Of a DNA stretch of 4,825 bases, positions 3,012 to 4,287 are shown piece after piece. How positions within the stretch are numbered: position 1 is the stretch's first letter; each line of letters opens with the position of its first letter. A model generated the notes under the pieces. That model worked only from the letters and a program-made list of their open reading frames with translations. It was not told the origin of the DNA and did not search any database. The position numbers and the translations under genes were made by a program. This stretch comes from a virus (taxonomy: Duplodnaviria; Heunggongvirae; Uroviricota; Caudoviricetes), in the IMG/VR virus record IMGVR_UViG_3300001149_000089. One strand, given 5' to 3'.

Positions 3012-3719
3012 AGGAAGAAATTAGAACAGAAACTGTGGCGGACATTGTGCATTCGTTGCCAGGCGGAGAAATAGAACGCTACAACAGGTGCAGAATATAA
3101 TTTTTCGCGAGTGCCAGAATAGCGATATTATGCAGTGTTTTTTAGTTTTCTATCAGGGGATATTTTGTGAAACTTTTCGGTGAATAAAATAATTCTCTGT
3201 AATAAATGATGAGTATGGTTGGTGGTTATATTTGCGCATGGAAATATTACATTAGACATGAATGTGTTTCAAATGAAAGAGCCATGACACCCGAATGGAG
3301 TTAGGGATTCATTACGTATCTAATCTAAAGAATAAGAAAAATACTTAATTCATTGTGGGTGGTGATGATATCTTGATATGTGAAAATGGTTCTCTTAATA
3401 AGATGTAACTAGCTTATTACTTATCCATAGCACAAGAAATGGTCCTGTATCTGCGTTGCCATGAAATAAGATAGGCCTAAATGTAATAAAGAGTTGCATG
3501 ACAAAATTACTAAAGTTCACAATAAAAAAGAATTAAGTTTTTTGTTCAGGTATTTTTTTAGTGTATTGTTTTGAAATGTTCTACGCTGCTCTAACCTTCA
3601 GTCTGAAGAGGGCTTGAATCGTGATGTCAGTTCGATTGACATAATGTTATTAATAATGTTTACGTTTGAATGTGAAATATGCTTAACTATGCCTTGATTG
3701 TTAATCACAGGGACTGACT

Positions 3720-3899
3720 ATGAGAAAAATACTGATGTATTTATGTATTAGCATATGGATTGTTATATCATGCGTGCCTATCATATTAACTAGCGAGTAT
3801 TTAACAGAGGCGAGTATAATGGCATTGATGTTTGGTCATGCCAATGCACTATGTATTGGGGTTTTTATTTCTATTATTTATATAGAATGCTGGAGGTAA
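3720..3899 (+). CDS. Hypothetical small hydrophobic protein (59 aa, probably two transmembrane segments)
   Basis: ATG at 3720 with AGGGA about 8 nt upstream; translation MRKILMYLCISIWIVISCVPIILTSEYLTEASIMALMFGHANALCIGVFISIIYIECWR, stop TAA at 3897-3899. Just under the ORF-track length cutoff. No recognisable homology; it sits in an AT-rich region, so it may be a chance ORF. Confidence 0.25.
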   Translation: MRKILMYLCISIWIVISCVPIILTSEYLTEASIMALMFGHANALCIGVFISIIYIECWR

Positions 3900-3960
3900 A
3901 TAGTGTGAACAGCATTAGTTTGATGATTTTATACTGAACTAAAGGGGGGAAGAGGTAACG

Positions 3961-4008
3961 AAAAAAGACCTCCACCAGGTACGAATCTGAGGCGGGCAGA
4001 TGGAGGTC
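3961..4008 (-). terminator. Candidate rho-independent terminator (minus strand)
   Basis: On the minus strand GACCUCCAUC ... GGUGGAGGUC (10 bp with one G-U pair; internal AUCUG/CAGAU sub-stem) is immediately followed by UUUUUU (plus-strand AAAAAA at 3961-3966). Confidence 0.45.
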
Positions 4009-4287
4009 GATATCTACACGATTAAATTGATAAGTAAAAGCCCCATCAGGGATTGATTTTTTCGAGTCTAATTTAAAGTAATTTCAACGATTTGGCAGAA
4101 TTTCTTAGAGTTAATGATTTTCAAGTTTTCGATTACCAGGAAAAAGGCTGGGTGCTGATAAAATAGTCATCTGCATTCCTTAAATTGTGTAAGGGTGAAA
4201 GGATAAAGTTCAATTTAAAGGCGGTGCAATATTAGCACCATCTTATATATGTAATGATTGATTTGCCTCTTTATTCTACTGTTGAGA

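What the first reader, a model, noticed from the sequence alone, without database searches (positions are those of the whole stretch)
3012..4287. About 1.3 kb AT-rich block with no long ORFs, a 59-aa hydrophobic ORF and a strong minus-strand terminator
This stretch is markedly more AT-rich than the ompT and hydrolase genes and has no ORF of 60 codons or more. It does hold a 59-codon ORF (3720-3899) with a plausible RBS encoding a two-helix hydrophobic peptide, and a GC-rich hairpin plus U6 on the opposite strand (3961-4008). Small membrane peptides with a convergent terminator are the layout of type I toxin-antitoxin loci and of small-protein or sRNA genes, but I see no specific family signature. 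It may simply be decayed, H-NS-silenced foreign DNA.
Basis: inference. Interest (0 to 1): 0.45.

Follow-up and report, generated by a model that had tools for sequence, protein, structure and literature searches.

The report
Prophage relic with hidden small gene
The AT-rich block is the eroded remains of a lambda-like prophage, but its 59-codon ORF is a real, conserved and so far unannotated gene for a two-helix membrane peptide that always sits just upstream of a hok toxin gene, and the supposed terminator is the broken remnant of that hok gene.

Summary
The window is E. coli APEC O1. The block lies between an integrase stub and a dead sitD-like gene at the ttcA/uspF (Rac) site, and about 1,050 of 5,426 complete E. 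coli genomes carry it.

GC is 34%, the longest ORF is 59 codons, and there is a hairpin followed by T6.

**The reading changes in three ways.**
- **The hairpin is not a terminator.** It lies inside the 3' half of a hok (Hok/Gef) toxin gene on the plus strand. That copy has an internal stop, and its promoter, mok/sok leader and first ~22 codons are deleted.
- **The left edge is prophage debris.** It holds DUF1627 and DUF977/LygF fragments. Gene order matches intact lambdoid phages: lygF, cargo, hok.
- **ORF59 is ordinary in length but not in content.** Its length is what chance gives, but its hydrophobicity is not (0.2% of shuffles). A full HMMER scan found a second type, 41-44% identical. It is also exactly 59 codons with the same start and stop, and sits 258 nt upstream of hokD in about 1,570 E. 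coli genomes and in phage records. Random divergence reproduces this in about 5 of 100,000 trials.

No curated family or RefSeq annotation covers ORF59. Its function is unknown. Recent polymorphisms are all nonsynonymous, so this copy is probably a stranded passenger.

The parts
2703..2933 (-). C-terminal stub of a tyrosine recombinase (old prophage integrase). It lies just left of the finding.
   Evidence: PGAP pseudogene in APEC O1 and UTI89. Pfam Phage_integrase, E = 1.7e-9.
2946..3061 (+). DUF1627 gene fragment from a lambdoid replication-region gene. Its last 50 nt form the left edge of the finding.
   Evidence: PGAP pseudogene. tblastn 79% identity to a phage DUF1627 protein at 2975-3061. 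Pfam DUF1627, E = 7.7e-11.
3029..3180 (+). C-terminal third of a DUF977 / LygF (Ren-like) gene, frameshifted.
   Evidence: blastn 74-82% to DUF977/LygF genes in E. coli and phages. tblastn residues 78-129 of 130, E = 8e-8. PHROG 142 Ren-like, E = 2.4e-7.
3181..3599 (.). AT-rich orphan spacer with no recognisable gene. It occupies the variable cargo slot between lygF and the ORF59-hok module.
   Evidence: No DNA relatives outside the ~1,045 carrier genomes. A six-frame protein search found nothing. No tblastn hit to cargo genes of related phages.
3600..3719 (+). Upstream leader of ORF59, including the weak Shine-Dalgarno AGGGA. It aligns with the leader of the second type with a few 1-4 nt gaps.
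   Evidence: Alignment A3. Type 2 has AGGAGG or AGGGGG at the matching place.
3720..3899 (+). ORF59: an intact gene for a 59-aa two-helix membrane peptide (type 1 of a two-type family).
   Evidence: HMMER hits to type 2 with E from 1e-10 to 3.5e-6. Both types have the same 59-codon length, start and stop. 60% nt identity with no indels; codon-position identity 58/72/50%; dN 0.44, dS 2.3. Simulation p about 5e-5. AlphaFold2 predicts helices 2-24 and 30-58, pLDDT 77.
3900..3953 (+). Spacer after the ORF stop. Its first 25 nt are 76% identical to the type-2 spacer. The rest marks the scar where about 270 nt were lost (hok promoter, mok/sok leader, hok codons 1-22).
   Evidence: Pairwise alignments. 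In strain 7/2 the interval from ORF stop to hok codon 23 is 324 nt; here it is 54 nt. The Rfam sok model hits L020 5344-5515 at 106.7 bits but nothing in the window.
3954..4037 (+). hok (Hok/Gef) toxin gene relic: codons ~23-51 plus the stop, with TGA in place of Arg35 and the conserved Cys30 changed to His.
   Evidence: blastn 80-82% to hokD / mokW / gef coding sequence. tblastn 59% over 22 aa with an internal stop. Local alignment 3954-4053 scores 97. Pfam HOK_GEF 16.5-18.6 bits. Same stem in intact hokD.
4038..4110 (+). Probable eroded 3' untranslated region of hok. The match is weak.
   Evidence: Gapped alignment to the region after hokD in strain 7/2. It is not better than shuffles on its own.
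4111..4287 (.). Unassigned AT-rich filler between the hok relic and the sitD-like pseudogene. It holds a small bidirectional hairpin at 4222-4240.
   Evidence: No relatives found. Hairpin listed. Its two polymorphisms are not compensatory.
4288..4825 (-). Frameshifted sitD-like metal ABC permease pseudogene, running past the window end. It forms the right border of the finding.
   Evidence: PGAP pseudogene. tblastn 60-82% to SitD in three frames. Intact sitABCD sits at the same site next to uspF in strain ISHS7.

Best explanation
**What the block is.** It is the eroded early-right (replication to nin, or 'moron') segment of a lambda-like prophage that once sat at the ttcA/Rac attachment site. 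These pieces remain, in phage order:
- a DUF1627 stub;
- the tail of lygF (DUF977);
- about 420 bp of orphan AT-rich filler;
- an intact 59-codon gene, ORF59;
- the 3' half of a hok toxin gene;
- more filler;
- a dead sitD-like permease.

**The hairpin.** The 'minus-strand terminator' is the hok coding-sequence hairpin read on the wrong strand.

**ORF59 (shown).** It is a genuine protein-coding gene for a two-helix peptide. It forms a fixed module with hok: the ORF, 90 nt, the sok/hok leader, then hok.

**ORF59 (inferred).**
- The peptide is probably an N-in/C-in hairpin in the inner membrane. Conserved positions are S17-C18-x-P20 in helix 1 and F38-G39-[H/Y]-x-N42-A43-L44 in helix 2.
- In a live phage it would be transcribed rightward with the early genes. 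It most likely acts in or on the inner membrane, as an exclusion or host-modulating accessory protein.
- In this window one or more deletions removed hok's promoter, Sok antitoxin RNA, mok and the first ~22 hok codons.
- The upstream neighbour was left stranded without a phage promoter. It is probably weakly expressed or silent and now drifts neutrally.
For: **Context.**
- The window matches APEC O1 at 100%.
- It is flanked by a CDT-IV prophage end, an integrase stub, a sitD-like pseudogene and uspF.
- The same block lies next to ttcA in UTI89 and occurs in about 1,050 of 5,426 genomes.

**Prophage stubs.**

**Synteny.** The order lygF, cargo, hok, rem, ydfU, Q holds in the following records:
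- mEp460 and PPompW;
- strain 7/2 and ATCC 8739;
- vB_EcoS-640R1 and PhiR42_1.

**hok relic.** The sok/hok leader is present in the intact relative and absent here.

**ORF59 is real.**
- Its hydrophobicity lies beyond 99.8% of shuffles.
- A second type was found by exhaustive HMMER, E = 1e-10.
- Type 2 is 59 codons with the same start and stop in complete genomes and phage records, and intact in 78 of 79 loci read.
- Nucleotide identity is 60% with no indels in 180 nt, while the flanks need gaps.
- Codon-position identity is 58/72/50%, and dN/dS is about 0.19.
- With 72 random substitutions, an intact ORF arises in 0.5% of trials. An intact ORF that is also this hydrophobic arises in 0.005%. 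Expected amino-acid identity is 18.4 +/- 2.5 residues against 26 observed.
- Type 2 carries a canonical AGGAGG before its ATG.
- hok starts 437-439 nt after the ORF start in 72 of 73 viral loci where both genes were found.
- AlphaFold2 predicts a helical hairpin, pLDDT 77.
Against: - **No expression data.** RefSeq/PGAP never calls the ORF in any genome inspected. Nothing turned up in the UTI89 sRNA supplements or the Sakai Ribo-seq supplements held here. The supplement of the CFT073 Ribo-seq preprint is not held.
- **Thin family.** It has only two lineages, both in Escherichia/Shigella prophages. The selection inference therefore rests on one deep comparison, dS is saturated, and the codon-position contrast alone is only marginal (about p = 0.05 by my own chi-square).
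- **Recent change looks unconstrained.** All 9 SNPs seen in DNA are nonsynonymous: 3 in type 1 and 6 in type 2. Frameshifted, truncated and stop-loss alleles also exist.
- **No promoter.** No convincing sigma-70 promoter lies upstream of the ORF in either type.
- **Function is pure inference.** Nothing matched in Pfam, NCBIfam, PHROGs, PADLOC, PDB or BFVD.
Confidence: 0.75

Rival explanations
1. ORF59 is a chance ORF in decayed, AT-rich, T-rich foreign DNA. The whole block is junk with no coding content.
For: - The ORF length is exactly what shuffles give.
- PGAP never annotates it.
- All within-type polymorphisms are nonsynonymous, and broken alleles exist.
- The family is confined to one species.
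Against: - Its hydrophobicity is reached by only 0.2% of shuffles.
- A 41-44% identical second type has identical length, start and stop at the same place relative to hok.
- Random divergence keeps such an ORF this hydrophobic in about 5e-5 of trials.
- There are no indels in 180 nt, although the flanks have them.
Confidence: 0.07
2. ORF59 is itself a type I toxin, kept in check by an antisense RNA.
For: - It is a small, very hydrophobic peptide under 60 aa.
- It sits in a prophage beside a known type I system.
- A promoter-like site on the minus strand lies inside the ORF at 3844-3816.
Against: - By inspection of the alignment, that promoter-like site is not conserved in type 2. AT-rich DNA also gives such sites at near-chance rates: 13 found against 8.7 +/- 3.2 expected.
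- No Rfam RNA family matches.
- From my own knowledge, known type I toxins have one transmembrane helix, not two.
- The 'convergent terminator' belongs to hok.
- The antisense ORF that some pipelines call in type 2 is broken in type 1.
Confidence: 0.08
3. ORF59 is a functional partner of hok/sok, for example a membrane co-factor, an immunity-like peptide or an insulator of read-through into hok. The unit would then be a three-part module rather than two neighbouring genes.
For: - The spacing from ORF start to hok start is fixed at 437-439 nt in 72 of 73 viral loci where both genes were found, while upstream neighbours vary.
- The adjacency holds in both types despite 40% nucleotide divergence.
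- Both products are small membrane peptides.
Against: - Many hokD-type loci lack the ORF upstream. mEp460, PPompW and JE86 have different upstream DNA.
- From my own knowledge, plasmid R1 hok/sok works without such a gene.
- In this window the ORF outlived hok.
- In Qin-type prophages the ORF and hok leader are split from hokD by an insertion.
Confidence: 0.1
4. The hairpin at 3961-4008 is a working minus-strand intrinsic terminator, for example for the sit-like operon or an sRNA.
For: A 10-bp G+C-rich stem is followed by U6. The sitD-like pseudogene lies upstream on that strand.
Against: - The loop is 22 nt, and the consensus scan does not list the site.
- z is only -1.95.
- The arms are hok codons Asp28-Leu29 and Glu39-Val40, and they also pair in intact hokD, whose tail is UUUCCU.
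- It lies 280 nt beyond the stop of a dead gene.
- No Rfam sRNA matches.
Confidence: 0.1

Closest known systems
hokD (relF) / hokW-type hok/sok loci of lambdoid prophages (Hok/Gef family PF01848; Rfam sok RF01794)
   Same: Window 3954-4053 is 80-82% identical to the 3' half of hokD / mokW / gef coding sequence and keeps its internal hairpin. It occupies the same place in the phage map, after lygF and its cargo.
   Different: Only codons ~23-51 survive, with a stop and without the conserved Cys. The promoter, mok, the Sok target and the sok gene are all missing. It is a dead fragment, not a toxin-antitoxin system.
Type-2 homologue of ORF59, an unannotated 59-codon ORF 258 nt upstream of hokD (strain 7/2 L020:5075-5254, ATCC 8739 L019:5075-5254, phages PhiR42_1 and vB_EcoS-640R1)
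   Same: Same length, start and stop. Both are two-helix hydrophobic peptides with conserved W13, S17-C18-x-P20, F38-G39, N42-A43-L44 and E56-x-W58-R59. Both have a hok locus as downstream neighbour.
   Different: Only 41-44% amino-acid and 60% nucleotide identity. Type 2 has a strong AGGAGG ribosome-binding site and an intact hok/sok downstream. Type 1 is known only from this relic.
Small two-helix membrane toxins GhoT / OrtT (57 aa) and small phage membrane proteins such as T4 Imm or the Qin lysis peptide YdfD (recalled from my own knowledge, not tested as homologues)
   Same: Similar size, helical-hairpin or membrane-peptide character, and prophage or stress-island location.
   Different: No sequence or profile similarity was detected: no Pfam, NCBIfam, PHROG, PADLOC or PDB match. 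The resemblance is in kind only.
DUF4212 / TIGR03647, the small subunit of sodium:solute symporters
   Same: It is a two-helix peptide of about 80 aa. Type-1 sequences give weak hits with E = 0.017-0.07.
   Different: All scores (13.9-14.5 bits) are below the curated cut-offs of 26-30. Type-2 members do not hit at all, and there is no symporter gene nearby. I treat it as a compositional match.

Membership tests
hok/sok type I toxin-antitoxin locus | Sequence homology to a hok coding sequence | tested here: met
   80-82% nucleotide identity over 66-100 nt to hokD / mokW / gef. tblastn E = 3e-5 against the window alone.
hok/sok type I toxin-antitoxin locus | Intact Hok ORF of about 50 aa with an N-terminal transmembrane helix and conserved Cys, passing the Pfam HOK_GEF threshold | tested here: not met
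   Only codons ~23-51 remain. TGA replaces Arg35 and His replaces Cys30. Pfam gives 16.5-18.6 bits against a cut-off of 22.
hok/sok type I toxin-antitoxin locus | hok mRNA leader with mok and the antisense sok gene (Rfam RF01794) | tested here: not met
   No Rfam match in the window at E <= 1. The leader alignment is no better than shuffles. The same model scores 106.7 bits in the intact relative L020.
hok/sok type I toxin-antitoxin locus | Toxicity of the peptide and repression by the antisense RNA | not testable with these tools
   This needs expression experiments. The remnant cannot encode a full Hok.
Type I toxin (ORF59 as the toxin) | Small hydrophobic membrane peptide under 60 aa | tested here: met
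   59 aa, GRAVY 1.37. Two predicted helices.
Type I toxin (ORF59 as the toxin) | Conserved cis- or trans-encoded antisense RNA with its own promoter and terminator | tested here: not met
   No Rfam family matches. By inspection of A3, the minus-strand promoter-like site at 3844-3816 is not conserved in type 2. The 'terminator' is hok coding sequence.
Conserved protein-coding small ORF | Same start, stop and length in diverged copies, no indels, and a substitution pattern favouring the reading frame | tested here: met
   There are only two lineages, so the result rests on one deep comparison.
Conserved protein-coding small ORF | Evidence of translation (Ribo-seq, mass spectrometry, tagging) | not testable with these tools
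   No data were found.
Rho-independent terminator (minus strand, 3961-4008) | Short G+C-rich stem-loop followed directly by a U-tract, at the end of a transcription unit | tested here: inconclusive
   A 10-bp stem and U6 are present, but the loop is 22 nt. The scan does not list it, z = -1.95, and the only upstream gene is a pseudogene 280 nt away.
Lambdoid prophage remnant at the ttcA (Rac) site | Phage gene fragments in phage order beside the attachment-site gene | tested here: met
   In window order: integrase, DUF1627, DUF977/LygF, hok. ttcA is adjacent in UTI89.
DUF4212 / TIGR03647 symporter small subunit | Score above the curated family threshold | tested here: not met
   13.9 bits against 30, and 14.5 against 26. 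Only type-1 members hit.

The most novel reading that the evidence does not exclude
ORF59 and its type-2 relative are a third, protein component of prophage hok/sok modules. This would be a two-helix membrane peptide that modulates Hok (co-toxin, immunity or insulation). That would explain why the two genes keep a fixed spacing through 40% sequence divergence, and why about half of complete E. coli genomes carry one type or the other, unannotated.
Probability: 0.1. Interest if true: 0.7.

Novelty: new member of a known kind. Interest (0 to 1): 0.35.

Why it matters
**Main points.**
- The 59-codon ORF belongs to a small membrane-protein family that RefSeq annotation and the curated protein-family libraries all miss.
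- One type or the other is present in roughly 1,050 and 1,570 of 5,426 complete E. coli genomes.
- It is physically tied to hok/sok, a textbook toxin-antitoxin system.
- This gives small-protein and phage biologists a concrete, testable candidate.
- It also corrects phage annotations that call the antisense frame.

**For this window.** The practical message is more ordinary. The block is prophage debris, the 'terminator' is a hok fragment, and this copy of the gene is probably a stranded passenger.

Tried and rejected
- **Rfam over the whole window.** The only hit is a chance-level STnc420 match at 3517-3567, 21.9 bits against a threshold of 70. There are no tRNAs.
- **Word-indexed protein search with ORF59.** It returned only near-identical E. 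coli copies. At that stage I wrongly leaned towards 'chance ORF'. The exhaustive HMMER scan overturned this.
- **Six-frame translation of 3160-3960 against 5.8 billion proteins.** Nothing was found, so the filler has no detectable coding ancestry.
- **tblastn of cargo genes from related phages and of the ISHS7 diguanylate cyclase.** Only LygF, DUF1627, Hok and SitD hit.
- **GTDB species representatives.** The protein-pattern scan and a 30-mer scan both found nothing. The family is absent from other species' representatives. The E. coli representative evidently lacks type 1.
- **Repeats and tandem repeats.** Nothing relevant lies inside the block.
- **hok leader and 3' tail homology.** Neither is better than shuffles.
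- **Family and structure libraries.** Profile search for a third type, PADLOC, PDB sequences, PHROGs, NCBIfam and a BFVD fold search (best E = 2.4) gave no informative match.
- **Literature.**
  - The peptide strings occur in no indexed paper.
  - The UTI89 sRNA and Sakai Ribo-seq supplements do not list the locus.
  - The CFT073 Ribo-seq preprint reports 15 intergenic membrane sORFs, but its tables are not held, so I cannot tell whether ORF59 is among them.
- **Antisense 83-85 aa ORF.** Some phage annotations call it in type 2. I rejected it: it is broken by two stops in type 1, and only 30% identical against 44% for the sense frame.
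Full report
**Where the window comes from**

The window is identical to Escherichia coli APEC O1, chromosome 1,516,696-1,521,520. PGAP annotates these features there, in order:
- the end of a lambdoid prophage carrying cdtABC, an alpha/beta hydrolase and an omptin;
- a 231-bp integrase stub (window 2703-2933, minus strand);
- a DUF1627 pseudogene fragment (2946-3061);
- nothing at all until a frameshifted metal ABC transporter permease pseudogene (4288 onward, minus strand);
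- uspF.

UTI89 lacks the CDT phage. There the same integrase stub lies directly beside ttcA, the Rac attachment gene. The 1,276-bp block of the finding occurs in about 1,050 of 5,426 complete E. coli genomes at 98-100% identity. PGAP never annotates anything in its central part.

**Checking the observation**

- The block is 34.3% G+C, against about 0.36-0.48 for the flanking genes.
- The longest ORF is 3720-3899, 59 codons.
- In 1000 dinucleotide-preserving shuffles the longest ORF averages 60-68 codons. The length is therefore exactly what chance gives.
- The minus-strand hairpin at 3961-4008 exists: a 10-bp stem, a 22-nt loop, U6, -17.8 kcal/mol, z = -1.95. The consensus terminator scan does not list it because of the long loop.

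**The 'terminator' is a hok fragment**

- A sensitive blastn search matched window 3954-4019, on the plus strand, to the coding sequence of hokD / mokW / gef genes at 80-82% identity.
- In translation, VTKKDLHQVRI*GGQMEVDIYT aligns with Hok VTRKDLCEVRIRTGQTEVAVFT.
- Pfam HOK_GEF scores 16.5-18.6 bits, below the threshold of 22. PHROG 251 'MokW-like host killing' gives E = 0.028.
- Significant homology is confined to 3954-4053. That covers hok codons ~23-51, the stop and a few bases beyond. The leader and tail regions align no better than shuffles.
- The hairpin arms are hok codons Asp28-Leu29 (GACCTC) and Glu39-Val40 (GAGGTC). They pair in the same way in intact hokD. The T6 on the minus strand arises because AGG AAA (Arg-Lys) became AAA AAA.
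- Rfam finds no sok/hok leader in the window. The same model scores 106.7 bits in an intact relative.

**The left edge is prophage debris**

- Window 2975-3061 encodes a DUF1627 piece.
- Window 3029-3180 encodes the last ~52 residues of a DUF977/LygF (Ren-like) protein, with a frameshift.
- In intact lambdoid phages and prophages the gene order is replication genes, DUF1627, lygF, variable cargo, hok, rem, ydfU, rusA, Q. The block keeps that order in miniature.
- The 420 bp after lygF (3181-3599) and the 180 bp before the sitD-like pseudogene (4111-4287) have no relatives at DNA or protein level.
- In other strains, intact sitABCD sits at the same chromosomal site next to uspF, at the end of a Rac-like prophage.

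**ORF59 is a real gene**

At first ORF59 looked like a chance ORF. Four observations pointed that way.
- Its length is ordinary.
- Only near-identical E. coli copies were found.
- GTDB representatives gave nothing.
- All three polymorphisms among nine alleles were nonsynonymous.

Two results overturned this.

First, its hydrophobicity is not expected. GRAVY is 1.37 with two TM-like windows. Only 0.1% of shuffled ORFs of 50 aa or more match it, and only 0.2% of shuffles contain one.

Second, an exhaustive HMMER scan of 1.84 billion representatives found a second type at 38-44% identity, with E from 1e-10 to 3.5e-6.
- In the complete genomes of strain 7/2 and ATCC 8739, and in phage records PhiR42_1 and vB_EcoS-640R1, this type is also exactly 59 codons. 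It has the same ATG and the same stop after IE(Y/C)WR.
- The two types are 60% identical in DNA with no indel across 180 nt. The flanks need gaps to align.
- Identity by codon position is 58/72/50%. dN is 0.44 and dS is 2.3, which is saturated.
- I simulated the observed 72 substitutions placed at random:
  - an intact ORF arises in 0.5% of trials;
  - an intact ORF as hydrophobic as type 2 arises in 0.005%;
  - expected amino-acid identity is 18.4 +/- 2.5 residues, against 26 observed.
- Type 2 carries AGGAGG or AGGGGG just before its ATG; type 1 carries AGGGA.
- AlphaFold2 predicts two helices, residues 2-24 and 30-58, with pLDDT 77.
- Conserved residues include W13, S17-C18-x-P20, F38-G39, N42-A43-L44 and E56-x-W58-R59.

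**The ORF travels with hok**

- Type 2 occurs in 1,567 of 5,426 complete E. coli genomes, again unannotated by PGAP.
- Both genes were located in 73 of the 80 IMG/VR loci. In 72 of these, hok starts 437-439 nt after the ORF start, while the genes upstream of the ORF vary.
- In strain 7/2 the layout is: ORF 5075-5254, sok/hok leader 5344-5515, hokD 5513-5668.
- In the window, the first 25 nt after the ORF stop are still 76% identical to the type-2 spacer.
- The interval from the ORF stop to hok codon 23 is only 54 nt here, against 324 nt in strain 7/2. About 270 nt are therefore missing. They held the hok promoter, the whole mok/sok leader and hok codons 1-22.
- Removing the toxin's 5' half together with its antitoxin is a 'safe' way to lose the system. 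The exact breakpoints are ambiguous: two alignments are possible.

**What ORF59 probably does**

Nothing known matches.
- Pfam, NCBIfam, PHROGs, PADLOC, PDB sequences and a BFVD fold search gave no match.
- The weak DUF4212/TIGR03647 hits are below threshold and limited to type 1.

From the sequence I infer an N-in/C-in helical hairpin in the inner membrane, with polar residues (His/Tyr40, Asn42) inside helix 2. It is co-oriented with the early rightward phage genes.

The most likely role is a membrane-acting accessory protein of the phage, either exclusion or host modulation. A functional tie to Hok is a minority possibility.

Recent evolution looks unconstrained.
- All nine SNPs seen at DNA level are nonsynonymous: three in type 1 and six in type 2.
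- Truncated or frameshifted alleles also occur.

The copy in this relic lacks any phage promoter, and neither type has a convincing sigma-70 site upstream. It is probably a stranded passenger.

**Expression evidence**

I found none either way. The CFT073 Ribo-seq preprint reports 15 intergenic membrane sORFs, some rich in AUA codons. Its tables are not available here. ORF59 has several ATA codons and is intact in CFT073.

**Verdict**

- The 'decayed foreign DNA' reading holds for most of the block.
- The ORF is the one piece of real content: an unannotated, conserved small membrane-protein gene linked to hok.

Noticed in passing
window 2450-2497: Two perfect 18-nt direct repeats, GGCAAAAATGGGGCAAAA, lie 30 nt apart within a ~10-nt-period array of 4.7 copies. 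They sit just inside the right end of the CDT prophage, whose junction with the older relic is near 2644. They may be recombinase or regulator binding sites.
   Followed up: no
L018:1-460 and L019:5075-5640 (Qin-type prophages, e.g. ATCC 8739): The type-2 ORF and a complete hok leader are present. The leader is cut exactly at the hok ATG by an ISNCY/transposase insertion. ydfW, flxA, ydfV and relBE follow before hokD resumes. This would explain why hokD (relF), downstream of relBE, has no mok/sok of its own.
   Followed up: partly
L021:2407-2658 and L022:2407-2658 (phages PhiR42_1 and vB_EcoS-640R1): Phage annotation pipelines call the 83-aa antisense ORF over the type-2 gene, in one case naming it 'hornerin', and miss the 59-codon sense ORF. 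The antisense frame shares third codon positions with the sense frame and is interrupted by two stops in type 1.
   Followed up: yes
window 3735, 3811, 3840 and type-2 ORF positions 47, 91, 111, 118, 143, 158: All nine single-nucleotide polymorphisms seen in the two ORF types are nonsynonymous and none is synonymous. This fits neutrality (p about 0.15) but not strong purifying selection. Diversifying selection is not excluded.
   Followed up: partly
window 4288-4825 (minus strand): The sitD-like pseudogene is only about 69% identical in DNA to the common sitD and is broken by frameshifts and stops. In other strains an intact sitABCD plus a diguanylate cyclase gene occupy the same slot between prophage tail-fibre genes and uspF.
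   Followed up: partly
window 1-2644: The omptin and alpha/beta hydrolase genes are right-end cargo of a CDT-IV (cdtABC) lambdoid prophage inserted at the ttcA site. Only 13 complete genomes carry the whole 4.8-kb arrangement.
   Followed up: no
Genome-contig scans: Neither the protein-pattern scan nor an exact 30-mer found type 1 in any GTDB species representative. Yet the E. coli type strain ATCC 11775 carries the block at 100% identity in the E. coli collection (H1). Either the representative genome is a different strain or the stretch is missing or masked there.
   Followed up: no
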